From Candidatus Magasanikiibacteriota bacterium (GTDB lineage: Bacteria; Patescibacteriota; Patescibacteriia; Magasanikbacterales; UBA922), in assembly GCA_014729395.1 (NCBI GenBank), contig WJJZ01000010.1, forward strand, positions 156,544-220,543: a stretch of DNA of 64,000 nucleotides, written 5' to 3'. The notes under the pieces are model-generated. The model saw only the letters and a list, made by a program, of their open reading frames with translations, made no database searches and was not told the DNA's origin. Of the stretch, positions 750 to 54,228 are shown piece by piece. Made by a program: the position numbers and the translations under genes. Numbering within the stretch: the stretch's first letter is position 1; each line of letters opens with the position of its first letter.

Positions 750-2444
750 TTAGTCATCACTCGCCATACGCAAAACCTCCTCTATTGTAGTAATACCTTT
801 AAAAACTTTGTCCATACCATCCTCAAGCATGGTGCTCATGCCTTTTTTCTTGGCCAATTCCGTAATTTCATCACTTGAAGCTCTTTTTAAAACCAACTCT
901 CTTATTTCATCATCCATTTCTAAAATTTCAAAAATACCAACTCGTCCGGTATAGCCGGTGCCACTACAAACTGGACAACCAGCTCCGTGATACAAAGTTA
1001 TGTCAGAAACTTTTTTACCTTTCCTGCCCTGCATCATCTTTTTTACAACTTCATGACTTTTTATAAATTTCTTTTGTTCTGCGGATAATTTCACGGAGGC
1101 CCTACACTTGGTACAAATTTTTCTTACCAATCTTTGGGCAATTACAACATTGACAGTAGAGGCAACCAAAAATGGCTCCACTTCCATATCCAATAGACGC
1201 GGTAAGGTGGTGGCGGCATCATTGGTATGGAGTGTGGATAAAACCAAGTGACCCGTCAATGCAGAATTAACAGCAATTCCGGCTGTTTCTTCATCTCTAA
1301 TTTCGCCTACCATGATAATATCAGGGTCTTGTCTCACAATAGAACGCAAACCCTTGGCAAAAGTCAGGTTTGTCTTGGTGTTTACTTGGATTTGACTAAC
1401 ACCCTCTATATCATATTCCACCGGATCTTCAATAGTAGCAATGTTTATCTCACGTTTATTTACTATTTTTAAAACAGCGTATAAAGTCGTGGTCTTACCT
1501 GAACCGGTCGGACCGGTTACCAAAACCATGCCATGTGGATGCTTTATCGCTCGTTTTACTTTTTTCAAATCCCTTTCTTGAAGACCCAAATCAACTAAGC
1601 TAAACTTTCTACTTCTGGCTGAAAGCAGACGCATTACCGTAGTTTCACCTTGGGTGACCGGAACCACAGAAACTCTAACATCTATCTTACCCTCGCTGGT
1701 TTCAAACCTCATTTTACCATCTTGCGCAGCTCTGTGTTCATCAGTTCTCATCTTTGATAGAATCTTTATTCTGGTCAAAATATATTCATACAAATTTTTT
1801 GGCAGCTCCAAAACATCATGCAAAATTCCATCAATTCTATATCGAACAACAGCTTTTTTCACATGAGCGTCAATATGTATATCAGAGGCTTTATTCTGGT
1901 GGGCATAACGTAACAAAAGATCAAGGACAGTAATAATCATACTATCTTTTTCTTCTCGGGATAATTCTTCATTTTTTAGCTTTCTTAAAACCCCTTTGAA
2001 CTCCTCTTTTAAACTGCCTTTGTATATTGTAAAAGCCTCTTCCAGTTGTTCAATCGTGGTAAAATATGGAATTACGTTTTGATGAACACGTTTTTCTATT
2101 AAACCTAAAGTTTCGATGTCTTGAGGATCGTTCATAGCTACTTTTACCCCTTTTTCAGACCTCTCAAAAGCAATCACTTTTTTGGTCTTGGCTACTAACT
2201 CTGGAATCAAAAGCAAAACATCCTCATCTATTTTTTGTTTTTTAAGGTTGACATATTTTACCCCCAAATGTTCGGCAATAGCCTGACCATAAAGATCCTC
2301 GGACAAAAGATTTTCTGAAAACAGATAATCAGAAAAAGAGGTCTTATATTCTTTGGCAAACTCCTCGGCCTTTTTTAAATCCTCTTGAGTAATGTAGTTT
2401 TGCTCCACTAAATTTTTTTTAATTAGATCTTCATTTAATTGCAT
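750..2444 (-). CDS. pilB: Type IV pilus assembly / type II secretion ATPase (GspE/PilB family)
   Basis: N-terminal T2SSE_N-like region, Walker A GPTGSGKTTT, Asp/His boxes, C-terminal tetracysteine CTKC...CPVCSGTGY zinc motif. Confidence 0.9.
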   Translation of the reverse strand: MQLNEDLIKKNLVEQNYITQEDLKKAEEFAKEYKTSFSDYLFSENLLSEDLYGQAIAEHLGVKYVNLKKQKIDEDVLLLIPELVAKTKKVIAFERSEKGVKVAMNDPQDIETLGLIEKRVHQNVIPYFTTIEQLEEAFTIYKGSLKEEFKGVLRKLKNEELSREEKDSMIITVLDLLLRYAHQNKASDIHIDAHVKKAVVRYRIDGILHDVLELPKNLYEYILTRIKILSKMRTDEHRAAQDGKMRFETSEGKIDVRVSVVPVTQGETTVMRLLSARSRKFSLVDLGLQERDLKKVKRAIKHPHGMVLVTGPTGSGKTTTLYAVLKIVNKREINIATIEDPVEYDIEGVSQIQVNTKTNLTFAKGLRSIVRQDPDIIMVGEIRDEETAGIAVNSALTGHLVLSTLHTNDAATTLPRLLDMEVEPFLVASTVNVVIAQRLVRKICTKCRASVKLSAEQKKFIKSHEVVKKMMQGRKGKKVSDITLYHGAGCPVCSGTGYTGRVGIFEILEMDDEIRELVLKRASSDEITELAKKKGMSTMLEDGMDKVFKGITTIEEVLRMASDD

Positions 2445-2466
2445 AGACTAAAGCTATAAACTAAAA

Positions 2467-2835
2467 TTACTTTAATGTTTTTTTAACTATTTCAATTACA
2501 TCGCTAATTGGTACATCTGATTTGACAAGATATTCACTGGCACCAAGCTGTTTGGTCTTTTCTTTGTCACCATCTTGACTAAGATTGGTGGCAACTATAA
2601 CAGGAATTTTAATTCCTTTTTCTTTCATCTCTTCAAGAACGGTAAACCCGTCCTTTTTGGGCATTACCAAATCAAGTAACAAAAGATCATATTTGTTTTT
2701 GGACATTTTTTCCAAGGCATCTGCACCATCATAAGCAACCGAAACGGAAAACCCGGCACTGGTTAATTTCAGTTCCAAAGCTCGGGCCATTGGTTTTTCA
2801 TCCTCCGCTACGAGAATCTTTTTCTCTTTCGGCAT
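2467..2835 (-). CDS. Single-domain response regulator (CheY-like receiver)
   Basis: ILVAEDE...DLLLLDLVMPKKDG...K motif set of REC domains; 122 aa; immediately upstream of pilB. Confidence 0.8.
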   Translation of the reverse strand: MPKEKKILVAEDEKPMARALELKLTSAGFSVSVAYDGADALEKMSKNKYDLLLLDLVMPKKDGFTVLEEMKEKGIKIPVIVATNLSQDGDKEKTKQLGASEYLVKSDVPISDVIEIVKKTLK

Positions 2836-3203: not shown

Positions 3204-3280
3204 GCACGCCTAGCTCAGCTGGTTAGAGCGCCTCGTTTACACCGAGGAGGTCAGGGGTTCGACTCCCTTGGCGTGCACCA
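3204..3280 (+). tRNA. tRNA-Val (anticodon TAC), CCA encoded
   Basis: Cloverleaf folded by hand: acceptor GCACGCC/GGCGTGC, D arm GCTC-AGCTGGTTA-GAGC, anticodon stem CCTCG/CGAGG with loop TTTACAC, T arm AGGGG-TTCGACT-CCCTT, discriminator A + CCA. Confidence 0.85.
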
Positions 3281-3739: not shown

Positions 3740-4744
3740 TCAAGAGCTTTTTAGTTTCATCTTTACATAATCCCAATAAAAATTATTTTCTTGTTTTTCC
3801 TTCATCCAATACCACCATTCAACACCCCATAGGTATGCTCTGGGTACTCCAATTCTTTCTACATATCTAAAATGTTTAATTAATCTCTCTGTATTCATGG
3901 TTTTTTCTTGCTCCTCTATCGGAGTATGAAGGGCTCCTCCATTAGTAAACCATGGTTCGGCTTGGAGTTCGGAGACAATGACATTATCCATATCCTTGTC
4001 GTACAACTGCGCTTTCAAGCGATAAACCGAGGGTGGTAGCCAATTATAAGAAAAAACCACACCTTTGTATGCGCGAACGACACGATATAAAGTGGTACCA
4101 AAAATATCTCCGGCATTAATGGCTTGACGCCATGTACTTAACTCTCCGCTGTCTGTAATCAAAATCTTTTTATTACCATCGAGCAATTTAACCAAATCGA
4201 TTTCATCATAGACCAAATCTTCTCGGTAATTGTCACACTCACCAAATCTAAATTTAATAAAAGGTTCATTCTCCACCTGCCACAGTTCCAAAGCCGGGTG
4301 ATTTTTGTATCTTTCCACTACTTTGGCAATATATGATAACAATCTGGTTCTATACTGTTCTTCATTCAAATTTTCTACCCAGTCCGGAACGTGGCACTCG
4401 GGCCAGCGCGGAGCTTTTTGACCTAGAACCAAAGTTATTTTGGTATCATTTTCAGCCGCTTTGTCCATCATCCAATCAACCTTGCTAAAATCGTAATACC
4501 CTCTTTCCGGTTCAATCTCACTCCACATGGCGGCTATTCGCACATACTCCGGTTCCAAAGATTCCAGCATGTCAATATAAACTTTTTGCCAATCCAATTC
4601 CAATGATTCAGCTTGGTATTGATTGTAACTAATGCCGTATTCGACATTATATTCTTTGCGGCTTATAAGCCATAAGAATAAATAAAACAATACTATTATA
4701 AATAGTATGATTGCAATAATCATAATAATTTTATTTTGCTTCAT
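3740..4744 (-). CDS. Membrane-anchored glycoside hydrolase, clan GH-A TIM-barrel-like (GH5/GH42-like)
   Basis: N-terminal TM helix; ELWQVENEP motif (NEP catalytic-acid signature of clan GH-A) and a second conserved acidic region; family not assignable by eye. Confidence 0.45.
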   Translation of the reverse strand: MKQNKIIMIIAIILFIIVLFYLFLWLISRKEYNVEYGISYNQYQAESLELDWQKVYIDMLESLEPEYVRIAAMWSEIEPERGYYDFSKVDWMMDKAAENDTKITLVLGQKAPRWPECHVPDWVENLNEEQYRTRLLSYIAKVVERYKNHPALELWQVENEPFIKFRFGECDNYREDLVYDEIDLVKLLDGNKKILITDSGELSTWRQAINAGDIFGTTLYRVVRAYKGVVFSYNWLPPSVYRLKAQLYDKDMDNVIVSELQAEPWFTNGGALHTPIEEQEKTMNTERLIKHFRYVERIGVPRAYLWGVEWWYWMKEKQENNFYWDYVKMKLKSS

Positions 4745-4779: not shown

Positions 4780-5724
4780 CTAATCACCTTGTGTAAAATA
4801 AGCGGTAAAATAACTGGTGGAATTTTTTATATTTTGCTGTAAATATTTACCGGAATTACTATGACGGATAATATTTAAATCACTGGCCCCAAGCATGTCC
4901 ATGGTTTTTAATAAAACAATTAAGGCTGCCGGTGCATCAATATAAGTATTATCAAACATTAAAATTTGGCTGTAAGCGCGATTTTCAATTGCGTCCCAAG
5001 TTATTTTATCCATATCAACTGATTCATCCGGGGTCAAATAATGTGAAAAATCAAAAGATCCAATGACCAAAACTTCATCGTTGCCGGAATATTCAGCCAG
5101 TCTGTCCGCTAATTTCTCCATGTCACTAATTTCTTTATTACTTAATATAACCAACGGAACTATGTCGGCTTTTGGAAAATAATATGAAACGAAAGCCACT
5201 GTGTTTTTAATGGAGTGTTCGGGAATAAAATTTTCATTATCATAAGAAACCAAACCACTAGCGACTAATTCATCGATAATAGTATAATTATTTTCTACCA
5301 CCCCAAACGGAGTCCGCCAATCCACTCGACCGCTAATAACATCATCCACGCCTTGACCGATGTGATTTGGTCCCAAAATAATTATGGTTTTTGGGTTTTC
5401 AGTTTCTTTAAGTCGAGAAAAGAATTCTGCAATATAATCTGAAACCAAATCATGATGAGGAATTATTCCACCATAAACTTTTTTATCTTTTTCTTGATAT
5501 GTTTTTTCACCGTTCTCTATGGCTGAATAAAACAATTCCCAGTTATAATCCAATTCAACTGTCTCCGCATACGGTTCGCTGTTAGAAAACACCGGACTAT
5601 GTTCATCTTTTATCTCAGTCAACATCTGTTGCTTGTAAAATATCAACAAAAAAATCACCACCAGACCGACAAAAGCGATGGCAGTGATTTTTAAGGTTTT
5701 AGATTGTCCGGTCTTATTCAACAT
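4780..5724 (-). CDS. MEMO1-family protein (AmmeMemoRadiSam system protein B-like) with N-terminal membrane anchor
   Basis: Motifs IPHHD, LGPNH, PEHSIKN, SFDFSHY match the MEMO1 family His/Asp metal-site motifs (PHAGY / GPSH / EHS / SDxSH). Confidence 0.55.
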   Translation of the reverse strand: MLNKTGQSKTLKITAIAFVGLVVIFLLIFYKQQMLTEIKDEHSPVFSNSEPYAETVELDYNWELFYSAIENGEKTYQEKDKKVYGGIIPHHDLVSDYIAEFFSRLKETENPKTIIILGPNHIGQGVDDVISGRVDWRTPFGVVENNYTIIDELVASGLVSYDNENFIPEHSIKNTVAFVSYYFPKADIVPLVILSNKEISDMEKLADRLAEYSGNDEVLVIGSFDFSHYLTPDESVDMDKITWDAIENRAYSQILMFDNTYIDAPAALIVLLKTMDMLGASDLNIIRHSNSGKYLQQNIKNSTSYFTAYFTQGD

Positions 5725-8700
5725 TTTCTATAACTATGGTACCCGGCTCGGAATAATTGATAATATCCTCGGTATTAACAGATTGGATTACGGCCGGCTC
5801 AACTGTAAATTCACCAAGCGAATTGACACGGGCATAGTATTTTCTATAACCGCATTTTGATCCCTTATAATAATTCGTTTTAATTATATTGTAACCGCTT
5901 CTATACGGATATATTATACAACTATCATAATCAATATCGCCCCTGGCATACGGTCTTTTGATTATACTTAAGCCGCTTGGTAATATATCGGTTACTGTGT
6001 AGGCGCCGTCAACAGAGTTGGGATTAATAGATGGATAAAGCCTCACCTCAACCACATCATTTTCTTTAAACGTAGTGGTTTCTTGACCATCTACAAAATA
6101 CTTTTTCTCAACTGATACATAAGTGACTCTCCCAGGTTCTTCGGCATACTGATTTGGAGCGGCAAAATATGATACGGTTACACCCACGTCGCCGTCTATC
6201 TCTTCAACTTTGAATGTTTCATATTGCTCCGGAGTAAGAGACAAGGTAAAAGTTCTACCTTTTTCCAATTCTTTTTCAATGCGCTTGCCATCAACGGTCA
6301 CAACAAAACTCACCGGAGTCGGTTTTAGATGTGTTAGCCTTTGCTTGATATACAAGAGCTCTTCCAAATTCACTAAAATTTCTCTAGTGTAATTCTTTTG
6401 AACATAATTCCACAATCTTTCGTGAAAATCATTATCCACACCGGCAGCTAAGTTGGCGGCGAGTGATGTAGCGGCCAAAATTTCGTCCTTATTGTCACTC
6501 GGTTTTATACGAACCATGCTTTCAAACTCTTCACCATAGTCGCTTAAGAGCTGATCTAACATATCGCGAGCTAGTTCGGTATCACCCAATTCTTCAGCCG
6601 CCAAAGCAATATAAAGACGATTTTTCACTGACAAATCCTCTTTTTGGGCCATTTTTTGCACCGGATACAAAACCGGTTCATCCAAAGCGGCCAAACCATA
6701 TAGTGACAGAGCGGCTTCATCTTCAGTCAAACTGGTTTGGTTGTAAAACCCGTAAAAATAATTGGCTAAAGCATTACGATCGAAAAATTGCGGGGCTAAA
6801 GCGGCTATTTTGGCCGACAGTTCAAAATCCGAATCGGCATATGACAACAAAGCAATACCGCCATTAGACATTTGGAATAAATTTTTATCAATTTCTTCAC
6901 CATTTCCTGTCATTTCGTCATCAAAATAAACTTGTTTGAATCTTCCGGCTAAGACGCGAGAAAGTTTTTGATCGATTCTGTCACCCCAAGTCCAAGCCAA
7001 TCTGGTCAAACGGTTGTAGAATTTACCTTGGCTTTCATCAGAAAAAATCATTTTAAATCTATCTTCAGGAATTTGTACCAGTTTTATATCTTGTGTCAGT
7101 TCATAAAAATCAGTAAATTCTTTCTTAAGCCTGGAATCTATAACGGAAATAGGCCTGATAACAGCGTCACTATAGCCGTTTGTCTTTACCGAGTGATATA
7201 GAGGATAAACACCTTTTTTAAGGTTACCCAAATCAAAATATTCCGGAACGAAAGCATACGAGGATCGCTCTTCATCAATACCCAGGTCATCAATTGTCAT
7301 TGAAAAATCAACCTTATCTCCCCGGTTCAATGAACTACCATAGGCTCTCAACTTAACGATAGGTTTATCACTTGCCAAATACTCGTCAGCAAATGTTCCC
7401 AAGACAAAAACCGGTTTACTGACATTTATGTTGCCGGTTGACTGACCGGCCAAAAGTGACTTGGTAACAGCTTTGGCATTAACTCGCCAAGAAGTAATAT
7501 TGTCGGGTAATTTGAAACTTATTTCACCCTTGCCATTACTGGCGGTTTGTCCGGAAAAGAACATAGCAGTATCCTTGAAGTCCACTCGTGCTCCGCCTTT
7601 TTCATTATGTACATAAATGCCATTGGCAATATAAGTATGATAATCAGCCACATGAAAATTAAACACCTCAACTGTCTTTTTCACTTTCTCAATATTTTCA
7701 ATCAAAATATAGTTACCATCCGCGTCCAACATAAAATCACCTACCTTGGCCTCGCCGATCATTTGCCAACCATCGTTGATATAGAATCTATGTTCCGGAG
7801 TTACTTCTATAGAATCATTTATAATAATATAACCCGGAACAACATGTTGAAAGGTTTCCACAACCTTGGCTTTGGTTAATTTTCTTGTTGCCGGTGAATC
7901 ATAAGTCAAAATCTCATCACCCGGGACAATATCCTCAATATTTTTTAAACTACCATCCGCCATAGTAATTTTGGTTCCGGACAAAAAGCAACCGGCCCCA
8001 CCTTCGGCTCCACTTTGATCAAATAAGGGGGTTTCGTGTGAACTATAGCTAAACAATTCACCACTTGGGACACCTGCATACAATTCCGACAATGTATTAC
8101 TGTAATCCTCTCTAATCTTATAAACAGCCTCATCAACCAAATTTATATTAAAACTTGACCTAACTCCACGACCAAATTTATCTTTGACGCTAATATACAA
8201 ATTTACATCTTCTCCGGGCTGATAAGTTTGCTTTTCACTAACCACTTCAATATCCAACTCCCTATCAGACTTGGCGACTCTGATGACAGAACCATTACCT
8301 CCTCCACCAAACCAATAATTGCTATAGGTCTCATGAAAAGTATTCCCATCATACCATACCCCTTTTAAACGTAAATTTGGTATGTCTTCTTCAGTAAATT
8401 TAAATCCGTATTCTGAATTCTGACTGACTTGGTAATCTTGCAAACCGCGCTGCATTTGCAAAAACAGAAAATCATTTTTGTCTGATCCGGACAGTTCTTT
8501 TCCATTATTTTTCATTTCCACTTTAACCGTCTCACCGATCGAGTACTCATTAAGATCCCTGTCTTCTGTCTCCTGTTTATCTTTTATTTCCAATTCATAA
8601 AAATCATAATCATACCTTGATTGAAAATTATAAAAATAAGCGGTTTGATAAAAAGCCCGACCATGATTATCTTTGGCAAAAACTTTAACGCGATAATTTT

Positions 8701-11284
8701 TATCTTTTTCAACATCAAACCGGTATTTATGTTCACCGCTGGCGCCGGTATTACCACTAAACTCGCCTACTTTATTCTCATAATAACTATATGAATATCT
8801 TTTACGTGTCACTTTATTTATAAAATCATAATCAGTACCGATTTCTTGTCTTTTATAACCAACTTCATATATTTCCGCTCTAAAATCAACATTGGCTCTC
8901 ACCGGACCCCGATAATCATAATAAATATTACCATCCCCACTGTTAATCTTATCAAAATCAAAGTAATTAAACTTGGTTGTTACTTCTGCTTTACCATCCT
9001 CCACCTTATTCGCTTTAACACTACCCAAAGTATCAAAATTGGCCACAATCACCATGGTACGACCGCTTATTTCTCCCAGTTCCGAATCTGCAGGATGAGC
9101 TTCTAAAGACTTATAAGACACACTAGCACAAGACCACTTATGTGTGCAGCTATGCTCTGATGTATTTATTACAGTCTTGACCCTGCCTTGAGAATCAGTA
9201 GTAACCTGTTGTCCATCAACCGATAAATCCAAATATGGTACTGGCGTCCCTTCAAAAAAATTAGTCTCAGCATCCAAATTAATATCTTCTCCGGCATAAA
9301 CAGCATACTTTTCCGGTGTAAGCTCTATTTGGTATTCGGGCTTAATATAATCTTGAACATTAATAAAATCCCTGGTCACGAATTCACCATCTACAAATAA
9401 CTCGACATGATAATATCCACTTTTAAGATCTTCCAAATTAAATTCCGCGGAAAAAGCACCGTTTGGATCCAATTCAATACTTACCTCTTCCAAAACAGCT
9501 GTTTCATGGTAATAATTAAAATAATCATTTTTTATAAGCTGAAGTTTTATGTCCTTATTTTTTAAATCATTACCATCACGATCTTGTAAAAACCCCCATA
9601 AATGGACTTTGTCATCCGGTTTGTAAACAGGTCTATCTTTTTCCAAAATTGTCCAATAGTCACCACCAAGGTTTCGATCGTATTTACTCAATTTAAACAA
9701 TGCTTTCTCCGATCCGTCGTCTATTACGATCTCATCGCTATCGGCATTAATCTTTTCAGTATCAAAAACCACCAGGCCATTGCTATTTGATGTGTATTCG
9801 TCTCCACTCCCAACCAGCCTAACTTTGGCAGCATTTATGGATGTATCGCTTTGTGCGTTCTTAAGCCAAACCAAAGACTGGTCTTCCAGTATATTTATAT
9901 AGGCGGCAATATTGGTAACTTGAAAAAAAGTCTGTAAAGTTCTATTGTCCGGTGTTTGCAGTTCCAGAGCATAAAAACCAACATCCAGGCTATCAGGTAA
10001 AACCAGATAATCTCTATTACGTGATTCGGTTGTTTTTAGATCAATATCCATGACTTGAACTGCATTACCAAGGTCAATCTTGGTATATCGATTCTGATAA
10101 CTCGCCCATGAAGGTATGGCACTTTTTTGACTAACCAATCTTTGATAGTTTTCCAAATTACCTAAATTATATACCGATACTTTATACTCAGCTTGGGTAC
10201 CATGCTCATATACCGGGAAAAAAGGAGTTACATCCGGAGAAAACTCACTAAGCTCTTTTCTAAAATAAATTTTTCGATAATTAGAAGCCGAGCCAGCAGC
10301 ATTGGTCTCAAATTGAAATTGAAAATCTTCTTCCAGTGATTCATCGGAATTTTCAAGGGGTAAATTTTTATCTACAGTTATAGTATAAATGGTACCGCTT
10401 TGTAATGTTTCATTTGGTACTAAAACCAAAGTCCGACCATGCTTTTCAAATCTATGGCTGATATTAGGTTCAATTGTGACATATTTATAATAATCATAAT
10501 AATCTTCATGACTAAAATAAATTTCTATACCGGTATTTAGCGGTACTTCGTCAACTTTGTCGCGCGGTAAACTGCCATAAATTTTAAACTGATCTTTGAC
10601 TTGGAAAGCCCAAGAATAGTCGCGCTCAACTGTTAAACCCTCGGAATTAACATATGCTGAATCAATTTTTAAATTATAAACAGTCCTGGTTTGAAGAGGA
10701 CTTTTTGGTGTAACTTTAAATTCTTGATTACTTATTACTTCAAAATTAAAATCAACCTCCGGAGTTAATTTAATATTTTCTTTTAACAAATTACTGTCTT
10801 CTATTTCGTCCTTGCTTTTTATTACAAAAGCGGTGCTGCTATCCACACCCAGACTGTCTGACTCAGTGGCTTCAACCGTAAAATTATCCTGGGCATAGGC
10901 CGGATTTATCAATAATTTTGAAAAGGGATCAAATAAACCGCCCGGCTGGCTTGGTTGCCAAATATAGATACTCGATATTGTGACCAATACCACCAGACCA
11001 ACAATCGCGGCCGGTACCAATCGCTTTGGCCTAAATAGGGTTTTTAGGGAAGCAATATTCAAACTTGGTTTTTTCATAATAATATTTTTTTTGCGCCGTT
11101 TCTCAATGATGTCTCGCTTTAGCGAATTTTTAAACTCTTGAGAAGCAGGCTGTGAATTAAAAATCCCCCGCTTGAGTTTACCCTCTGCTTCCTTTAACGA
11201 CGCAAACTTGGATTCATTACGTTTTTTATTGGATTTTTTATTATCCAAAAAATTCATTTTTTTATTTTTTGCCTTATTTTTCAT
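5714..11284 (-). CDS. Giant (1856 aa) single-pass membrane protein: Lys-rich cytoplasmic N-terminus, TM helix, Ig-like (Big_5/SbsA-type) and macroglobulin-like beta domains, embedded Hint/mini-intein-like domain, alpha-2-macroglobulin (A2M) domain, alpha-helical TED-like region without thioester, C-terminal receptor-binding-like domain
   Basis: A2M hallmark FKLPDNITSWR; TED-like LSLYGLAALDEP region but no CxEQ; C-terminal MG8-like region; start codon overlaps the stop of the upstream ECF sigma gene (ATGAAAAATAA overlap). Confidence 0.8.
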   Translation of the reverse strand: MKNKAKNKKMNFLDNKKSNKKRNESKFASLKEAEGKLKRGIFNSQPASQEFKNSLKRDIIEKRRKKNIIMKKPSLNIASLKTLFRPKRLVPAAIVGLVVLVTISSIYIWQPSQPGGLFDPFSKLLINPAYAQDNFTVEATESDSLGVDSSTAFVIKSKDEIEDSNLLKENIKLTPEVDFNFEVISNQEFKVTPKSPLQTRTVYNLKIDSAYVNSEGLTVERDYSWAFQVKDQFKIYGSLPRDKVDEVPLNTGIEIYFSHEDYYDYYKYVTIEPNISHRFEKHGRTLVLVPNETLQSGTIYTITVDKNLPLENSDESLEEDFQFQFETNAAGSASNYRKIYFRKELSEFSPDVTPFFPVYEHGTQAEYKVSVYNLGNLENYQRLVSQKSAIPSWASYQNRYTKIDLGNAVQVMDIDLKTTESRNRDYLVLPDSLDVGFYALELQTPDNRTLQTFFQVTNIAAYINILEDQSLVWLKNAQSDTSINAAKVRLVGSGDEYTSNSNGLVVFDTEKINADSDEIVIDDGSEKALFKLSKYDRNLGGDYWTILEKDRPVYKPDDKVHLWGFLQDRDGNDLKNKDIKLQLIKNDYFNYYHETAVLEEVSIELDPNGAFSAEFNLEDLKSGYYHVELFVDGEFVTRDFINVQDYIKPEYQIELTPEKYAVYAGEDINLDAETNFFEGTPVPYLDLSVDGQQVTTDSQGRVKTVINTSEHSCTHKWSCASVSYKSLEAHPADSELGEISGRTMVIVANFDTLGSVKANKVEDGKAEVTTKFNYFDFDKINSGDGNIYYDYRGPVRANVDFRAEIYEVGYKRQEIGTDYDFINKVTRKRYSYSYYENKVGEFSGNTGASGEHKYRFDVEKDKNYRVKVFAKDNHGRAFYQTAYFYNFQSRYDYDFYELEIKDKQETEDRDLNEYSIGETVKVEMKNNGKELSGSDKNDFLFLQMQRGLQDYQVSQNSEYGFKFTEEDIPNLRLKGVWYDGNTFHETYSNYWFGGGGNGSVIRVAKSDRELDIEVVSEKQTYQPGEDVNLYISVKDKFGRGVRSSFNINLVDEAVYKIREDYSNTLSELYAGVPSGELFSYSSHETPLFDQSGAEGGAGCFLSGTKITMADGSLKNIEDIVPGDEILTYDSPATRKLTKAKVVETFQHVVPGYIIINDSIEVTPEHRFYINDGWQMIGEAKVGDFMLDADGNYILIENIEKVKKTVEVFNFHVADYHTYIANGIYVHNEKGGARVDFKDTAMFFSGQTASNGKGEISFKLPDNITSWRVNAKAVTKSLLAGQSTGNINVSKPVFVLGTFADEYLASDKPIVKLRAYGSSLNRGDKVDFSMTIDDLGIDEERSSYAFVPEYFDLGNLKKGVYPLYHSVKTNGYSDAVIRPISVIDSRLKKEFTDFYELTQDIKLVQIPEDRFKMIFSDESQGKFYNRLTRLAWTWGDRIDQKLSRVLAGRFKQVYFDDEMTGNGEEIDKNLFQMSNGGIALLSYADSDFELSAKIAALAPQFFDRNALANYFYGFYNQTSLTEDEAALSLYGLAALDEPVLYPVQKMAQKEDLSVKNRLYIALAAEELGDTELARDMLDQLLSDYGEEFESMVRIKPSDNKDEILAATSLAANLAAGVDNDFHERLWNYVQKNYTREILVNLEELLYIKQRLTHLKPTPVSFVVTVDGKRIEKELEKGRTFTLSLTPEQYETFKVEEIDGDVGVTVSYFAAPNQYAEEPGRVTYVSVEKKYFVDGQETTTFKENDVVEVRLYPSINPNSVDGAYTVTDILPSGLSIIKRPYARGDIDYDSCIIYPYRSGYNIIKTNYYKGSKCGYRKYYARVNSLGEFTVEPAVIQSVNTEDIINYSEPGTIVIENVE
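7604..7990 (-). other. Hint / bacterial intein-like (BIL) mini-intein domain embedded in the A2M-like protein (aa 1099-1227)
   Basis: Block A CFLSGTKITMADG, block B TPEHRF (TxxH), block F/G VFNFHVADYHTYIANGIYVHN ending His-Asn; +1 residue is Glu (not Cys/Ser/Thr); no endonuclease domain. Confidence 0.75.
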
Positions 11285-11843
11285 ATTTTTTGTGTATCAA
11301 AGCAAATTTTTTCAAAGCTCTGTGAATTGTTACCCGGCTATTGTTCACCGACATACCCATAACCTCGGCTATTTCTTGGTTAGATAGTTCGGCATAAAAC
11401 TTCAAATGCAATATTCTTTGATATTTTTCTTTTAAATCACCTAAAGCTTTTTGAACTATTGTAGCCTCATATGATGCCTGCATTTCATCTTCGGGTGAAT
11501 CGGATTCAATCGGTTTATTTTCTAATCCTTCCATACCGGATTCTTTTTTCCTTCCTTGTTTACGGTAATAATCAATTAAATTATTATTGGCAATTGTATA
11601 AATCCAAGAAGAAAAACTGCCTTTTTTCGGGCTAAAACCGCTTAAATTACAAAAAACTTTCATAAAAGTACTAGATACCAAATCTTCAGTTGCTTCTTTA
11701 TTGCCGGTACGTTTAAAGATAAAGCCATATATCTTGGGAAAATAATGTTCATACAAAATTTCAAAAGAAGCTTCATCATCTTTTGCTTTTTCCACCAGCT
11801 GATTTTCATTTTTTATTTTTTCATTTTTGACACTCTCTGCCAT
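11274..11843 (-). CDS. ECF-type RNA polymerase sigma-70 factor
   Basis: Sigma70 region 2 (FMKVFCNLSGF...WIYTIANNNLIDYYRK) and region 4 HTH (LSNQEIAEVMGMSVNNSRVTIHRALKK); 189 aa. Confidence 0.85.
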   Translation of the reverse strand: MAESVKNEKIKNENQLVEKAKDDEASFEILYEHYFPKIYGFIFKRTGNKEATEDLVSSTFMKVFCNLSGFSPKKGSFSSWIYTIANNNLIDYYRKQGRKKESGMEGLENKPIESDSPEDEMQASYEATIVQKALGDLKEKYQRILHLKFYAELSNQEIAEVMGMSVNNSRVTIHRALKKFALIHKKYEK

Positions 11844-11881
11844 AAACTACTACGAAATAAATTTAAATCCATTACAGTTTT

Positions 11882-12784
11882 TTAAACTACAAACAAAGCC
11901 AAGCCCACAGCCACCAAAACAATGGCTGAAAGCTGCAGCCAAAATTCTTTTTTGGTAAAATACTCTTTGAATATTTTTGGATAAAAAACACTCATTAAAT
12001 AAATCAAGGCAAACATGGCGACAAATTGAAATCCGGCCAGTGCATTGACGACAGTAACGGAACCGATCGCAATCGCATACTGGATTAATATTACTCCAAT
12101 AAATCCCAATATTTTTGTAACAGCCACAATTGATAAGGCATGTTTGCGGTATTTGCTTTTGACTTTCTTTTTTCTTTTTTTAAAAATTCTTCGAACGGCC
12201 GGTGAAAACAACAAAAAAAGAGCAAAAAAGCCGGTTGTAAATCTGGTCCATATAAATACCGGCAAAAAATCATTTATATCATATAAATATTTTGCGCAAA
12301 TATGAGAAAAAGCAAACAATATTCCGGCTAAAAAAGCATATAAATAACCGACATGGATATGATTGTTATTTTTTGTTTTCTCAAAAGATAATAAAACCGT
12401 AGCAATTACCAACACTAAAAAGCCAATATTATCAAATAAAGACAAACGCTCACCAAGAATAAAAAAAGCTGTTAAATAAGTGGCGATTGCGGTAATTGCT
12501 CCGACGAAAGGATTGATATGACTGGCCTCGCCTTTTTTGGTGGCTACAAACATGGCCCACAAGGCCAAACCAAAAGTAATTCCGGAAACCAACGCCCACA
12601 GCCATTCCGTTCCGGACAATAATTCCGGCGCCAGAGGATACAAAAGCAAAGCACCGAACATGAAAATTGTGGAATAAAAAGTATAAACAATCGGTTTTCC
12701 GACTGATTTTGTTAGAATAAATTTATCCAGAGTAACCGTTAGCGCCAAAGCGCTATATCCCAAAATTGCAAGAAAAAACCACAT
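11882..12784 (-). CDS. EamA/DMT-superfamily membrane transporter
   Basis: 300 aa, about 10 TM helices in two repeated halves, EamA-like. Confidence 0.6.
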   Translation of the reverse strand: MWFFLAILGYSALALTVTLDKFILTKSVGKPIVYTFYSTIFMFGALLLYPLAPELLSGTEWLWALVSGITFGLALWAMFVATKKGEASHINPFVGAITAIATYLTAFFILGERLSLFDNIGFLVLVIATVLLSFEKTKNNNHIHVGYLYAFLAGILFAFSHICAKYLYDINDFLPVFIWTRFTTGFFALFLLFSPAVRRIFKKRKKKVKSKYRKHALSIVAVTKILGFIGVILIQYAIAIGSVTVVNALAGFQFVAMFALIYLMSVFYPKIFKEYFTKKEFWLQLSAIVLVAVGLALFVV

Positions 12785-32868: not shown

Positions 32869-32920
32869 ACGACTTCGTTAAAACTACCTAGTACAAAGCA
32901 TGACTTCAGCAAAACTATTC
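32869..32920 (-). promoter_or_regulatory. Tandem 22-nt upstream motif (two copies about 30 nt apart) abutting tRNA-Thr(TGT), shared with tRNA-Thr(GGT)
   Basis: Plus strand ggcACGACTTCGTTAAAACTAC...GCATGACTTCAGCAAAACTAT versus 30145-30199 ggcATGACTTCGTTAAAACTAC...GCACGACTTCGTTAAAACTAC; the minus-strand core GTAGTTTTAACGAAGTC ends exactly 2 nt before tRNA +1 in both loci. Confidence 0.5.
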
Positions 32921-33835
32921 CATTTCATCAATTCTTTGCCTAAAAGAAAGTAATTTTTGATTTTCCGGATTTACCATTCTCAGTCTTTTAAAAGCTTCTT
33001 CCGCATTGCTTTTTTGTCCAATAAGTATACTGATTTCAACCAATTTGTCAAGATACTTTGGATTTTGGGGTTCCAACTCAAGTGCCTGTAAAATTGCTTC
33101 ATTAGCCGCTCCATATTCCTCAACAGATTCCAATAATTCAGCAAATTTAGCAAAACGATTGGAAATATTCGGATTTAACAATATGGCTTTTTCATAATAC
33201 CGTATAGCTTCAGCGTAATTACCTTCTTTTTCGAATACATCTCCAAGTTTAATCAAAACATAATCATCGTCTTCATCAAGCTGTAATAAAAACTTATAGG
33301 TTTCTTTGGCCTCAGATAATTGACCTTGCTTTACATAAACATCTCCCAGACCTCTATAGGCGCTAATATTTTTTGCATCCACTCTAATCGCTTCTATATA
33401 TTTTTCTTCAGCTTTTTCATAATCTTCTTGTTCGTATGCTGCATCACCTTCCTTTAATAATTTGTCAACCTCTGACGTAATTTCCGAATCTTTTTGTTTT
33501 TCATTTTTTTCCGTGGCTTGTCTGACAACAGACTGAAGCTCTGTTTTTTCTCCGGCTTCCAGCTTTACCTTACCGACATATTTTCTAAACTTGATTTGAA
33601 TTTTTTTCCAAATCTCAATCAAAGGCTCAATCTTTTTTGTTATTTTTTCTTTATTTTCAATATTTTTTTTATCTACCCTCTTTTTCAAAAAGTCATCTTT
33701 CTTTTTTTCTTCTTTTACCTCCGGTAAATTTTCCACATCCAACAAAGTAAGCTGTGGAAATTTACGTATCAAAACTACTATTATTACCACTAAAGCCAAT
33801 AATACTAATATAAAAGGAATAATACTGTATGACAT
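32915..33835 (-). CDS. Membrane-anchored TPR-repeat protein
   Basis: N-terminal TM; Lys/Glu-rich linker; at least 5 TPR units (AYRGLGDVYVKQGQLSEA, AEAIRYYEKAILLNPN ...). Confidence 0.65.
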   Translation of the reverse strand: MSYSIIPFILVLLALVVIIVVLIRKFPQLTLLDVENLPEVKEEKKKDDFLKKRVDKKNIENKEKITKKIEPLIEIWKKIQIKFRKYVGKVKLEAGEKTELQSVVRQATEKNEKQKDSEITSEVDKLLKEGDAAYEQEDYEKAEEKYIEAIRVDAKNISAYRGLGDVYVKQGQLSEAKETYKFLLQLDEDDDYVLIKLGDVFEKEGNYAEAIRYYEKAILLNPNISNRFAKFAELLESVEEYGAANEAILQALELEPQNPKYLDKLVEISILIGQKSNAEEAFKRLRMVNPENQKLLSFRQRIDEME

Positions 33836-53870: not shown

Positions 53871-54228
53871 AATATATAATTTTAGGCTTATTTACAATAA
53901 AAAACTGTGGTTTTCACCACAGACCTTGAAGTTTCGATAAAAATCGACCTAGAAGACAAAAAATCTTCTTTCTACCTCGGTAGCGTATTTAATCCTTTTT
54001 TGGAAGCTACTGTCTGCGGTTTTTAGTGTTTACATAATAACAAAATTAAAAAATCATGTCAATACCTTGACAAATTAGCTAAAATGTGATAAAAATCAAT
54101 ATCTTTCGCCCTTTTCTATTACAAAATAAGGAGGATTGATGATATAAAGATAAAAATAATTTAACCGGCAGAAGGAAAGATCTTTCACCAACGTGACAAC
54201 TCCTTCTGTACAACAGAAGGAGAAAGTC

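What the first reader, a model, noticed from the sequence alone, without database searches (positions are those of the whole stretch)
5714..11843. ECF sigma factor translationally coupled to a giant membrane-anchored alpha-2-macroglobulin-like protein in the anti-sigma position
The ECF sigma gene (11274..11843) ends inside the start of the 1856-aa gene; stop and start overlap in ATGAAAAATAA. The downstream product has the topology of an anti-sigma factor: a roughly 95-aa Lys-rich cytoplasmic N-terminus, then a single TM helix. Its extracytoplasmic part, however, is a full bacterial A2M architecture (Ig-like and MG domains, LPDNITSWR A2M signature, a TED-like helical domain with no CxEQ thioester, a C-terminal receptor-binding-like domain). 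A2M homologues are protease traps and anti-sigma factors are signal sensors. A fusion or operon that wires a protease-trapping scaffold directly to an ECF sigma would be a plausible envelope protease-sensing signal-transduction system. I am not aware of this arrangement being described.
Basis: partly seen in the sequence, partly recalled or inferred. Interest (0 to 1): 0.82.

Follow-up and report, generated by a model that had tools for sequence, protein, structure and literature searches.

The report
Sigma factor wired to a macroglobulin-like surface protein
In this ultrasmall (Patescibacteria) bacterium a stress-type sigma factor is paired with a giant membrane-anchored relative of the protease trap alpha-2-macroglobulin. 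Its short cytoplasmic tail most likely holds the sigma factor in check.

Summary
A 189-aa ECF sigma gene (11274..11843, -) abuts a 1856-aa ORF (5714..11284, -) that has a basic tail, one TM helix and an ectodomain with an alpha-2-macroglobulin (A2M) fold and no CxEQ thioester.

The anti-sigma reading is supported by comparison, not by homology.
- In 69 assessable related loci, 34 have the sigma gene directly upstream, and all 34 carry a tail of 38 aa or more. Of the 35 without a sigma gene, 24 have tails under 38 aa.
- Three sigma clades match three tail types.
- Clostridia-like relatives carry a true zf-HC2 anti-sigma domain at the same position.

1. A 129-aa A-type bacterial intein-like (BIL/Hint) domain sits exactly in the Gly-rich bait loop.
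2. A membrane-anchored Memo-like gene is coupled downstream in 55 of 80 loci.
3. An ECF-type promoter, TGTAAT-N16-CGT, precedes the sigma gene.
4. A second copy lies inside the tail-coding sequence. It is conserved at the DNA level in 14 of 14 clade members and is followed by a conserved internal Met.

Protease sensing itself is untested. I rate this a new variant of known kinds.

The parts
11852..11876 (-). P1: ECF-type promoter-like motif TGTAAT-N16-CGT. It ends 8 nt before the sigma ATG, which predicts a leaderless or near-leaderless sigma mRNA.
   Evidence: It is the only exact match in the 64-kb window. The same motif at the same distance precedes the sigma gene in L002, L008, L011, L039, L041, L056, L058 and L060 and in L083 and L084.
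11274..11843 (-). ECF (group IV) sigma-70 family sigma factor, 189 aa.
   Evidence: Pfam Sigma70_r2 and r4_2. NCBIfam TIGR02937 above its cut-off. Homologues lie directly upstream of the A2M-like gene in 34 of 69 assessable loci.
5714..11284 (-). Single-pass membrane A2M-like protein, 1856 aa, the putative anti-sigma factor. An alternative start is Met10 at 11255..11257.
11196..11221 (-). P2: a second promoter-like motif, CGTAAT-N16-CGTT, inside the tail-coding region (codons R22-L30).
   Evidence: It is the only window match to YGTAAY-N16-CGTT. It is present in frame in 14 of 14 clade-A loci. Codon choices keep the DNA motif while the amino acids vary: Cys TGT or Arg CGT, and Ala GCG, Ser TCG or Pro CCG. 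The joint codon-choice probability is about 1e-17.
11075..11203 (-). Helical part of the cytoplasmic tail (residues 28-70, helix-loop-helix), the candidate sigma-binding region. It contains the conserved PAS.dF..LK..IL..R motif.
   Evidence: AlphaFold model with helices 28-39 and 49-70 and block pLDDT up to 97. Tail alignment. The profile hits only this A2M family among 1.84 billion proteins.
11075..11077 (-). Conserved in-frame Met70 (MKKPSL...), about 20 aa before the TM helix. It is a candidate internal start for a tail-less isoform.
   Evidence: An in-frame Met lies 141-159 nt after the start of P2 in all 11 loci examined. The window has no other ATG in any frame between P2 and Met70. Tail-less homologues such as L004 start at about this point, some 20 residues before the TM helix.
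10949..11017 (-). Predicted transmembrane helix, about residues 90-112 (VPAAIVGLVVLVTISSIYIW).
   Evidence: Hydropathy maximum. Conserved in position across the family.
10304..10588 (-). Bacterial Ig-like domain (Big_5), residues 233-327.
9392..9640 (-). MG2 macroglobulin domain, residues 549-631.
8117..8554 (-). A2M bait-region domain (Pfam A2M_BRD), residues 911-1056.
7991..8116 (-). Flexible Gly-rich bait-like loop, residues 1057-1098, ending in GAEGGAG.
   Evidence: pLDDT below 50 for model residues 156-197. Hint-less homologues have a continuous GAEGGG-GG..R loop here.
7604..7990 (-). A-type bacterial intein-like (BIL/Hint) domain, residues 1099-1227: Cys1, TPEH block, C-terminal VHN, with Glu at +1.
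   Evidence: Pfam PT-HINT E = 6e-14. Best PDB match is 2LWY, a bacterial intein-like domain, at E = 1.8e-15 and aligned end to end. It is exactly 129 aa with invariant catalytic residues in 70 homologues.
7403..7561 (-). A2M (MG) domain carrying the LPDNITSWR signature, residues 1242-1294.
6329..7036 (-). Helical TED-like domain, about residues 1417-1652, without a CxEQ thioester.
   Evidence: Helices at model residues 518-753 with pLDDT around 90. Fold matches to A2M, TEP and C5. No CxEQ.
5726..6313 (-). C-terminal beta-sandwich region (CTMG/receptor-binding-like), about residues 1658-1853.
4780..5724 (-). Membrane-anchored Memo-like protein (AmmeMemoSam_B-type). Its start overlaps the A2M stop by 11 nt.
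   Evidence: Pfam Memo E = 9e-30. TIGR04336 above its cut-off. It lies directly downstream on the same strand in 55 of 80 loci, usually with a gap of -1 to -4 nt, and always has an N-terminal hydrophobic anchor.

Best explanation
This is an autoregulated ECF sigma / anti-sigma module. The anti-sigma factor is a member of a large, mostly Patescibacteria family of thioester-less, membrane-anchored A2M-like surface proteins.

Shown:
- The gene order sigma, A2M-like, Memo-like on one strand.
- Co-occurrence and co-divergence of the sigma gene and the cytoplasmic tail.
- The A2M fold.
- The BIL domain in the bait loop.
- Two copies of a sigma-type promoter motif.

Inferred mechanism:
1. The helical part of the tail (residues 28-70) binds and sequesters the sigma factor at the membrane.
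2. Damage, cleavage or consumption of the ectodomain, most plausibly by foreign proteases attacking the exposed bait loop, leads to degradation of the anti-sigma isoform and frees sigma.
3. Free sigma fires P1, which makes more sigma and anti-sigma. It also fires P2, which lies inside the tail-coding sequence.
4. P2 transcripts cannot encode the N-terminus. In the window they would be translated from the conserved Met70, giving a tail-less A2M together with the Memo-like protein.
5. The circuit would therefore replenish a consumable protective coat without adding more inhibitor of sigma.

The BIL domain is a separate, older module. After translocation it either splices out, leaving a product equal to the Hint-less homologues, or cuts the chain at the bait position. 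It is not needed for the sigma link.
For: Linkage:
- 34 of 69 assessable loci have an ECF sigma gene within -22 to +41 nt upstream, apart from L060 at +164.
- All 34 have tails of 38-109 aa. Of 35 sigma-less loci, 24 have tails under 38 aa (Fisher p = 2.4e-10).
- The remaining long tails of sigma-less loci lack the motif or are an unrelated domain.

Co-evolution:
- Sigma identity against ectodomain identity gives r = 0.77. Three sigma clades equal three tail types.

Independent precedent on the same scaffold:
- P0088 and P0091 have zf-HC2 N-termini (37.3 and 28.2 bits against a 22.2 cut-off). An ECF sigma gene overlaps each by 4 nt.

Tail structure:
- Two helices are predicted, the second with block pLDDT up to 97.

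Promoters:
- P1 is conserved upstream of the sigma gene in 11 of 14 clade-A loci.
- P2 is present in 14 of 14. Synonymous and non-synonymous changes preserve [T/C]GTAA[T/C]-N16-CGTT.
- TGTAAT-N16-CGT resembles Bacillus sigmaX- and sigmaW-type ECF promoters (my own knowledge).
- A conserved internal Met follows P2. Tail-less homologues start at about that point.

A2M identity.

Type II bacterial A2M without a thioester still traps a protease after bait cleavage (PMC5764988).

Autoproteolytic ectodomains functioning in anti-sigma signalling have a precedent in RsgI (PMC10328401, PMC10556640).
Against: - No sequence or profile similarity of the tail to any known anti-sigma domain or solved structure.
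- The tail type occurs only on this A2M family, so it is not a proven modular sigma-binding domain.
- The sigma-tail complex could not be modelled.
- No site-2 protease gene lies in the window.
- The bait loop is about 1000 residues from the membrane. Cleavage there is not by itself a classical site-1 event.
- No transcription start or protein isoform data exist.
- There is no Shine-Dalgarno sequence before Met70. In four loci an in-frame ATG sits 8-11 nt after P2, which would give a nearly full-length anti-sigma protein instead.
- P2 is restricted to one of the three sigma clades.
- No protease substrate is known, and the A2M-like protein could have a non-inhibitor role.
- Counts of loci are not phylogenetically independent.
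Confidence: 0.6

Rival explanations
1. This is an operon, not a switch. The sigma factor simply drives transcription of the A2M-like and Memo-like envelope genes and is controlled by something else. The cytoplasmic tail serves another purpose, such as localisation or insertion, or is a by-product of the DNA-level P2 element.
For: The tail has no homology to anti-sigma domains. Part of its apparent conservation, the C/R-N....A-L-L segment, is explained by DNA-level constraint on P2 rather than protein function. The first 25 or so residues are predicted disordered.
Against: Three unrelated tail types, plus a true zf-HC2 domain, all appear exactly when a sigma gene is adjacent, and each tracks its own sigma clade. 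The best-conserved and most confidently helical part (residues 46-70) lies downstream of P2 and is constrained at the protein level. The arrangement of a sigma gene followed by a co-transcribed single-pass membrane protein with its N-terminus inside is the standard ECF/anti-sigma layout.
Confidence: 0.15
2. The signal is not protease attack. The A2M-like protein is a surface scaffold or adhesin of an episymbiotic cell. Its anti-sigma isoform would report envelope stress, host contact or mechanical load. The BIL cut would give two non-covalently held fragments whose separation triggers signalling, as in RsgI SEAL domains.
For: There is no thioester in any family member. The N-terminal part has Ig-like domains. 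The conserved partner is a Memo-like protein, sometimes fused to PGA_cap, which links the pair to envelope polymers rather than to protease inhibition. A clostridial relative carries a dockerin. Autoproteolysis-dependent anti-sigma signalling is documented for RsgI (PMC10328401, PMC10556640).
Against: The full A2M domain order, the flexible loop at the bait position and the TED-like and CTMG-like domains are all retained. Thioester-less MagD still traps proteases (PMC5764988). The BIL domain is independent of the sigma link: 28 sigma-less loci have it and 2 sigma-linked loci lack it. It was lost seamlessly in a sigma-linked clade. It lies far from the membrane.
Confidence: 0.2
3. On the Hint domain only: it is a fixed, intein-like passenger that splices itself out by the A-type BIL route and has no role in the mature protein. 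The mature protein would be an ordinary Type II-like A2M.
For: Hint-less homologues have exactly the sequence expected of a spliced product: GAEGGG-GD... against GAEGGG|C...HN|DKGG. A Hint-less clade is nested among Hint-bearing ones and keeps sigma, tail, P1, P2 and Memo. The closest solved relative is the C. thermocellum BIL domain 2LWY. BIL domains lacking a +1 nucleophile have been reported to splice as well as cleave (title of Dassa et al. 2004, cited in PMC7765530).
Against: The review PMC7765530 states that A-type BIL domains cleave at their C-terminus but cannot ligate the flanks. The domain is more conserved than its host (51% against 39% mean identity). It has co-diverged with the host (r = 0.76) at an invariant 129 aa with no endonuclease, across many candidate phyla. 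The +1 residue is D, E or Q in 65 of 70 and almost never a nucleophile. That fits selection for something other than classical splicing.
Confidence: 0.4

Closest known systems
Type II bacterial alpha-2-macroglobulin (MagD/YfaS of Pseudomonas aeruginosa and E. coli)
   Same: Large multi-MG-domain envelope protein with a bait region and a TED-like domain but no CxEQ thioester. It is associated with the cytoplasmic membrane. Cleavage at the bait gives an N-terminal fragment of about 90-100 kDa and a C-terminal fragment of about 74 kDa (PMC5764988). Cutting at the BIL site here would give about 125 and 71 kDa.
   Different: It is anchored by its own N-terminal TM helix rather than through MagB. 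There is no magABCEF context. A BIL domain sits in the bait loop. The downstream partner is Memo-like. It is linked to an ECF sigma factor. It is found in Patescibacteria, Chloroflexota and Bacillota rather than in Gram-negative bacteria.
Type I bacterial A2M (ECAM/YfhM of E. coli, Salmonella SaA2M; PDB 4RTD, 5A42, 4U48)
   Same: These are the best structural matches, at E about 1e-27 to 1e-25. They share the order of BRD, MG, TED and CTMG domains and a disordered bait of about 20 residues (PMC4498604).
   Different: They carry a CxEQ thioester, are inner-membrane-anchored periplasmic proteins and sit in an operon with pbp1C (PMC4498604). None of these applies here. Identity is about 11-12%.
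ECF sigma / class I (ZAS-type) single-pass anti-sigma pairs such as SigW-RsiW and RpoE-RseA
   Same: Sigma gene first, then a tightly coupled gene for a membrane protein with its N-terminus in the cytoplasm. An autoregulatory promoter of -35 'AAC/AAT' and -10 'CGT' type with a 16-nt spacer. In homologues P0088 and P0091 the N-terminus really is zf-HC2.
   Different: The window's tail is not a recognisable anti-sigma domain. The ectodomain is a 1750-aa A2M scaffold. A second sigma-type promoter lies inside the anti-sigma coding sequence.
A-type bacterial intein-like (BIL) domains (Amitai et al. 2003; C. thermocellum BIL, PDB 2LWY)
   Same: About 130 aa with Cys1, a TxxH block, a C-terminal His-Asn, no +1 nucleophile and no endonuclease. 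Found in a secreted or surface protein. End-to-end alignment at E = 1.8e-15.
   Different: Described BIL domains lie in hypervariable regions of non-conserved proteins (PMC7765530). This one occupies one fixed loop of a conserved family, is inherited vertically and is more conserved than its host.
RsgI anti-sigma factors with autoproteolytic SEAL domains
   Same: An anti-sigma factor whose extracytoplasmic part contains a self-cleaving module (PMC10328401, PMC10556640).
   Different: The SEAL domain is unrelated to Hint, lies next to the membrane and is required for signalling. Here the Hint domain is about 1000 residues from the membrane and is dispensable for the sigma link.

Membership tests
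ECF (group IV) sigma-70 factors | Regions 2 and 4 only, about 170-200 aa | tested here: met
   Sigma70_r2 at 30-98 and r4_2 at 129-179 in a 189-aa protein, with no r1 or r3 hit. TIGR02937 scores 121 bits against a 42.9 cut-off.
ECF (group IV) sigma-70 factors | Autoregulatory promoter with a -35 AAC-like element and a -10 CGT element | tested here: inconclusive
   TGTAAT-N16-CGT lies 8 nt before the ATG and is conserved in relatives. No transcription data are available.
Class I / ZAS anti-sigma factors | N-terminal anti-sigma domain (four-helix ASD, often HxxxCxxC) | tested here: not met
   No Pfam hit. No PDB profile hit. hhalign probability 0.1% against ZAS tails. The tail has no Cys or His. 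Homologues P0088 and P0091 do meet this feature.
Class I / ZAS anti-sigma factors | Single-pass protein with the N-terminus inside, encoded directly downstream of its sigma factor | tested here: met
   Topology is inferred from the positive-inside rule.
Class I / ZAS anti-sigma factors | Binds and inhibits the cognate sigma factor | not testable with these tools
A2M / TEP / complement superfamily | MG-domain ring with a BRD, a TED and a C-terminal MG domain | tested here: met
   Pfam MG2, A2M_BRD and A2M. Foldseek probability 1.0 against ECAM, SaA2M, A2ML1, CD109, TEP1 and C5.
A2M / TEP / complement superfamily | CxEQ internal thioester | tested here: not met
   No C[GLAS]EQ in this protein. 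Among the 120 hits only three have one: an N-terminal CLEQ in P0036, one at 1464 in the distant P0107, and one at 1565 in the distant P0115.
A2M / TEP / complement superfamily | Exposed protease bait region between the BRD and the next MG domain | tested here: inconclusive
   There is a low-confidence Gly-rich loop at 1055-1096 at that position. It carries the BIL domain. Protease susceptibility is untested.
Type I bacterial A2M (YfhM) | Operon with pbp1C; membrane-anchored periplasmic protein | tested here: not met
   The neighbours are sigma, Memo-like, GH-like and EamA genes. The protein has an N-terminal TM helix and no lipobox.
Type II bacterial A2M (MagD/YfaS) | Six-gene mag operon context | tested here: not met
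   The only conserved neighbours across 80 loci are Memo-like and sigma genes.
A-type BIL domain | Hint fold with Cys1, a TxxH block and a C-terminal His-Asn, and no Cys/Ser/Thr at +1 | tested here: met
   CFLSGT...TPEH...VHN|E. Best PDB hit is 2LWY.
A-type BIL domain | Located in a variable region of a non-conserved protein | tested here: not met
   Fixed position and fixed 129-aa length in 70 homologues.
A-type BIL domain | Autocatalytic cleavage or splicing | not testable with these tools
   Catalytic residues are invariant. Activity needs an experiment.
Canonical intein | Nucleophile (Cys/Ser/Thr) at +1; often a homing endonuclease; sporadic, mobile distribution | tested here: not met
   The +1 residue is Glu here. 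Across 70 homologues it is D 29, E 22, Q 14, G 2, T 2 and N 1. Hint identity tracks host identity (r = 0.76).
Memo / AmmeMemoRadiSam system protein B | Memo fold family match | tested here: met
   PF01875 scores 104 bits against 27. TIGR04336 scores 113 bits against 26.
Memo / AmmeMemoRadiSam system protein B | Partner AMMECR1 and radical SAM genes | tested here: not met
   Neither is among the annotated neighbours in the window or the conserved neighbour clusters. Here the protein has a membrane anchor and is paired with the A2M-like gene.

The most novel reading that the evidence does not exclude
A self-replenishing protease-decoy circuit encoded in one gene. The full-length isoform, transcribed from P1, is both a surface A2M and the anti-sigma factor, so its destruction by proteases reports consumption of the coat. 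Released sigma then uses a promoter embedded in the anti-sigma coding sequence (P2) to make a tail-less A2M from the conserved internal Met, together with the Memo-like partner. Output would rise without added inhibition of sigma. In addition, the BIL domain in the bait loop could supply a backbone Gly-Cys thioester. That would functionally replace the missing CxEQ thioester, either for covalent capture of a nucleophile or for self-activation of the trap.
Probability: 0.18. Interest if true: 0.88.

Novelty: new variant of a known kind. Interest (0 to 1): 0.72.

Why it matters
Each component (ECF sigma/anti-sigma switch, bacterial A2M, BIL domain) is individually known. Three combinations were not found in the searched literature.
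- An A2M scaffold as the extracytoplasmic domain of an anti-sigma factor.
- A self-processing Hint domain fixed exactly at the A2M bait position across many candidate phyla.
- A sigma-type promoter conserved at the DNA level inside the anti-sigma coding sequence.

If the anti-sigma role holds, it gives a testable example of how Patescibacteria regulate their envelope. These bacteria have tiny genomes and few regulators. It would also be a first case in which a protease trap could report its own consumption.

The BIL finding gives a conserved, experimentally tractable context for a domain class whose biological role is still unclear.

The family is large: at least 549 matching stretches among GTDB species-representative genomes. 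The biology would therefore be general rather than a curiosity of one metagenome-assembled genome.

Tried and rejected
- The tail profile found nothing meaningful in PDB, no anti-sigma family in Pfam and no similarity to ZAS tails by hhalign.
- A word-indexed search with the tail alignment returned nothing at all. The exhaustive HMM search found the tail only on this A2M family and on N-terminal fragments of it. The idea that it is a widely reused anti-sigma module is rejected.
- A motif search for a site-2 protease (HExxH, LDG) in the window found only an acyltransferase and a tRNA synthetase.
- Sigma-70-type promoter and terminator scans were no better than shuffles for promoters (39 found against 33 expected). 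The TTGAGA-16-TATTAT hit just before Met70 is too close to the ATG to serve it.
- I considered that the Hint domain is a mobile intein. This is rejected because there is no +1 nucleophile, no endonuclease, and the domain co-diverges with its host.
- I considered that the ORF is two genes. This is rejected because homologues are collinear over the full length.
- A P2-like internal motif was sought in the other sigma clades and not found, except for one locus with a motif just before the A2M start.
- Literature searches for anti-sigma plus macroglobulin, Hint or intein plus macroglobulin, and A2M plus Patescibacteria gave nothing relevant.

Full report
OBSERVATION

The sigma stop and the first ATG of the long ORF share ATGAAAAATAA.

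The small protein is an ECF sigma factor. It has Sigma70_r2 and r4_2, and TIGR02937 scores above its cut-off.

The large protein is 100% identical to a hypothetical protein of a Candidatus Magasanikbacteria metagenome-assembled genome. Its features are as follows.
- 29 Lys/Arg in the 89 residues that precede a single strong hydrophobic segment.
- Big_5, MG2, A2M_BRD and A2M Pfam domains.
- LPDNITSWR at 1259-1267.
- No CxEQ.

An AlphaFold model of residues 900-1856, built with 12 sequences (pLDDT 75.9), contains MG domains, a well-predicted helical domain and a C-terminal beta domain. Its best PDB matches are E. coli and Salmonella A2M (E about 1e-27 to 1e-25), followed by A2ML1, CD109, TEP1 and C5.

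One correction concerns the start codon. The closest orthologue (67% identical, L083) starts at the equivalent of Met10, one base after its sigma stop. In the window the true start may therefore be ATG 11255..11257, 16 nt after the sigma stop, rather than the overlapping ATG.

1. Residues 1099-1227 are a Hint domain (PT-HINT, E = 6e-14). The sequence runs CFLSGTKI...TPEH...YVHN followed by Glu.
   - Its best solved relative is the C. thermocellum bacterial intein-like domain 2LWY, aligned end to end at E = 1.8e-15.
   - It lies between A2M_BRD and the A2M domain, in a loop that AlphaFold leaves unstructured (protein residues 1055-1096). That is the bait position.
   - In 70 full-length homologues it is always 129 aa. 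Cys1, TxxH and HN are invariant. The -1 residue is Gly in 69 of 70. The +1 residue is D, E or Q in 65 of 70.
   - Hint identity tracks host identity (r = 0.76). The Hint is more conserved than the host (51% against 39%).
   - Hint-less relatives have a seamless Gly-rich loop, GAEGGG-GD... One Hint-less clade is nested among Hint-bearing ones in a neighbour-joining tree without support values.

2. A Memo-like gene (4780..5724) overlaps the end of the A2M-like gene. Its product has an N-terminal membrane anchor. It is found directly downstream in 55 of 80 loci across Patescibacteria, Chloroflexota and Bacillota.

3. A promoter-like motif, TGTAAT-N16-CGT, ends 8 nt before the sigma ATG. It is the only match in the window. 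It recurs at the same place in relatives.

4. A second copy, CGTAAT-N16-CGTT (11196..11221), lies inside the tail-coding sequence.
   - It is present in 14 of 14 loci of this clade.
   - The first codon is TGT (Cys) or CGT (Arg), never AGA. The eighth codon is GCG, TCG or CCG (Ala, Ser or Pro). The ninth is TTA or TTG.
   - The amino acids therefore vary while the bases are kept.
   - Given each locus's own codon usage, the joint probability is about 1e-17. This treats the loci as independent, which overstates the case somewhat.
   - This explains the odd 'C/R-N' motif of the tail as a DNA constraint.

IS THE LARGE PROTEIN AN ANTI-SIGMA FACTOR?

A scan of GTDB species genomes found at least 549 stretches encoding relatives, and 79 loci were fetched.

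- Of 69 loci with a complete 5' end and at least 650 nt upstream, 34 have an ECF sigma gene immediately upstream on the same strand.
- All 34 encode 38-109 residues before the TM helix.
- Of the 35 without a sigma gene, 24 have fewer than 38 residues even when the longest possible ORF is taken (Fisher p = 2.4e-10).
- The other long tails of sigma-less loci lack the conserved motif or form a different domain.

The sigma factors fall into three clades that coincide with three different tail types. Sigma identity and ectodomain identity co-vary (r = 0.77).

Two more distant, Hint-less relatives from Clostridia-like contigs carry a Pfam-significant zf-HC2 anti-sigma domain in the same position. 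An ECF sigma gene overlaps each by 4 nt.

The window's tail is predicted to form two helices, 28-39 and 49-70, the latter with block pLDDT up to 97.

Three points count against membership of known anti-sigma families.
- The tail shows no similarity to Pfam anti-sigma domains, PDB chains or the ZAS tails.
- An exhaustive profile search finds it only on this A2M family.
- The complex with sigma could not be modelled.

I therefore rate 'cognate sigma/anti-sigma pair' as well supported by comparative evidence but not shown.

HOW IT PROBABLY WORKS (INFERENCE)

1. The sigma factor is held at the membrane by the helical tail.
2. P1 gives the usual positive autoregulation of sigma plus anti-sigma.
3. 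P2 is the more conserved of the two motifs. L085 keeps P2 but lacks P1.
4. P2 lies downstream of the A2M start codon, so its transcripts cannot encode the full tail.
5. In the window the first ATG in any frame after P2 is Met70, in frame and 20 residues before the TM helix. An equivalent Met is conserved in all 11 loci examined. Tail-less homologues begin at about that point.
6. The simplest reading is that active sigma makes a tail-less A2M plus the Memo-like protein. The output of the circuit would be more of the surface protein, without more inhibitor.
7. The trigger is unknown. Thioester-less MagD still traps a protease after bait cleavage (PMC5764988), and A2Ms are consumed when used.

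Caveats:
- The bait is about 1000 residues from the membrane, so a further step is needed before intramembrane proteolysis.
- No site-2 protease gene lies in the window.
- In four loci an ATG 8-11 nt after P2 would give a nearly full-length anti-sigma protein instead.
- P2 is absent from the other two sigma clades.

THE HINT DOMAIN

It meets the sequence definition of an A-type BIL domain and fails that of a canonical intein, because it has no +1 nucleophile. Unlike described BILs, which sit in variable regions of non-conserved proteins (PMC7765530), it occupies one fixed loop of a conserved family.

It is independent of the sigma link. It is present in 28 sigma-less and 32 sigma-linked loci and absent from 2 sigma-linked loci. 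A sigma-linked, P1/P2- and Memo-bearing clade lacks it.

It may splice, giving a product like the Hint-less proteins, or cut the chain at the bait position. Cutting would give about 125-kDa and 71-kDa fragments, comparable to bait-cleaved SaA2M and MagD (PMC5764988). Sequence alone cannot decide between the two. The published statements on A-type BIL ligation also differ (PMC7765530 and the Dassa 2004 title cited there).

COMPARISON AND NOVELTY

- Structurally the closest matches are bacterial A2Ms. By lack of a thioester the protein resembles Type II (MagD), but it lacks the mag operon. It also lacks the pbp1C link of Type I (PMC4498604, PMC5764988).
- As a regulator it works like an ECF/anti-sigma pair, but it fails the homology test for class I anti-sigma domains.
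- Autoproteolytic ectodomains in anti-sigma factors are known for RsgI (PMC10328401, PMC10556640), but with an unrelated domain next to the membrane.
- Full-text searches found no paper that combines anti-sigma with macroglobulin, Hint or intein with macroglobulin, or A2M with Patescibacteria. The ECF reclassification paper does not mention A2M.

I class the finding as a new variant of known kinds, with several separately testable novel features.

VERDICT

Interest is 0.72. The strongest new, directly checkable results are these four.
- The co-variation of tail and sigma gene.
- The zf-HC2-bearing relatives.
- The BIL domain at the bait position.
- The DNA-level internal promoter motif.

Noticed in passing
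L014:11150-12919, L018:11163-12932, L033:7417-9189: In several relatives the downstream Memo-like protein is fused to a PGA_cap (CapA, poly-gamma-glutamate capsule synthesis) domain, giving a product of about 590 aa. This hints that the A2M/Memo pair is tied to an envelope polymer.
   Followed up: partly
L036 and L066 (A2M N-termini); P0062: Some members without a sigma gene carry a different cytoplasmic N-terminal domain of about 60-85 aa (..LKKYV...G.S..EI...L...GW..EEI..) in place of the sigma-linked tails.
   Followed up: no
L026, L031, L043-L047, L054, L059, L061, L064, L074 (50-70 nt upstream of sigma; about 20 nt in L059): The Peregrinibacteria/Peribacteria-type sigma clade has its own conserved upstream motif, TGTAA[T/G]-N16-19-TTATA. 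The -35-like element is shared with the window's clade but the -10-like element differs. L044 also has such a motif ending at the A2M start.
   Followed up: partly
L085:2380-3100: This relative keeps the internal P2 motif but has no P1 motif upstream of its sigma gene. A TTGATATAAT-like sequence is there instead.
   Followed up: no
L035, L060, L071; P0059, P0066: A few homologues have Ser or Thr at the +1 position after the Hint His-Asn, for example VHN|TTGAE. They could splice by the canonical intein route.
   Followed up: no
P0093 (Acetivibrio clariflavus) and L080: A Hint-less clostridial relative carries a type I dockerin, which makes it cellulosome-associated. The zf-HC2 relative L080 has a dockerin protein gene next to it.
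   Followed up: no
P0111: A more canonical A2M subfamily member, with Pfam A2M_comp/TED and bMG6/bMG10 domains, also has a 129-aa Hint with the same flanks (AEGGG|C...VHN|GKGG). The insertion is therefore not confined to the window's subfamily.
   Followed up: no
window 33764-33787 (-): A third, weaker match to GTAAT-N16-CGT lies inside the 5' part of ORF 32915..33835. Given 1.6 matches expected by chance, it is probably fortuitous.
   Followed up: partly
window 11923-11941: A terminator-like hairpin followed by a T-rich tract lies within the last codons of the upstream EamA-family gene, about 50 nt before P1. It may insulate the sigma operon from read-through.
   Followed up: no
window 7036-6980 (residues about 1434-1439): A nearly invariant GDR[I/V]DQ motif lies at the start of the helical TED-like domain, roughly where the CGEQ thioester motif lies in true TEDs. 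It may be the degenerate remnant of that site.
   Followed up: no
window 750-2835 (-); 3204-3280 (+); 53889-54037 (-): Ordinary context includes a PilB/T2SSE-type ATPase and a single-domain response regulator downstream of the operon. It also includes tRNA-Val on the opposite strand, five more tRNAs and an L10 leader elsewhere. MsrA, rhodanese, glucose/sorbosone dehydrogenase and DNA polymerase III alpha genes are also present.
   Followed up: partly
window 3740-4744 (-): The gene after the Memo-like gene is a glycoside-hydrolase-like TIM-barrel protein (weak GH42/GH10 matches). It is not a conserved neighbour in the related loci.
   Followed up: partly
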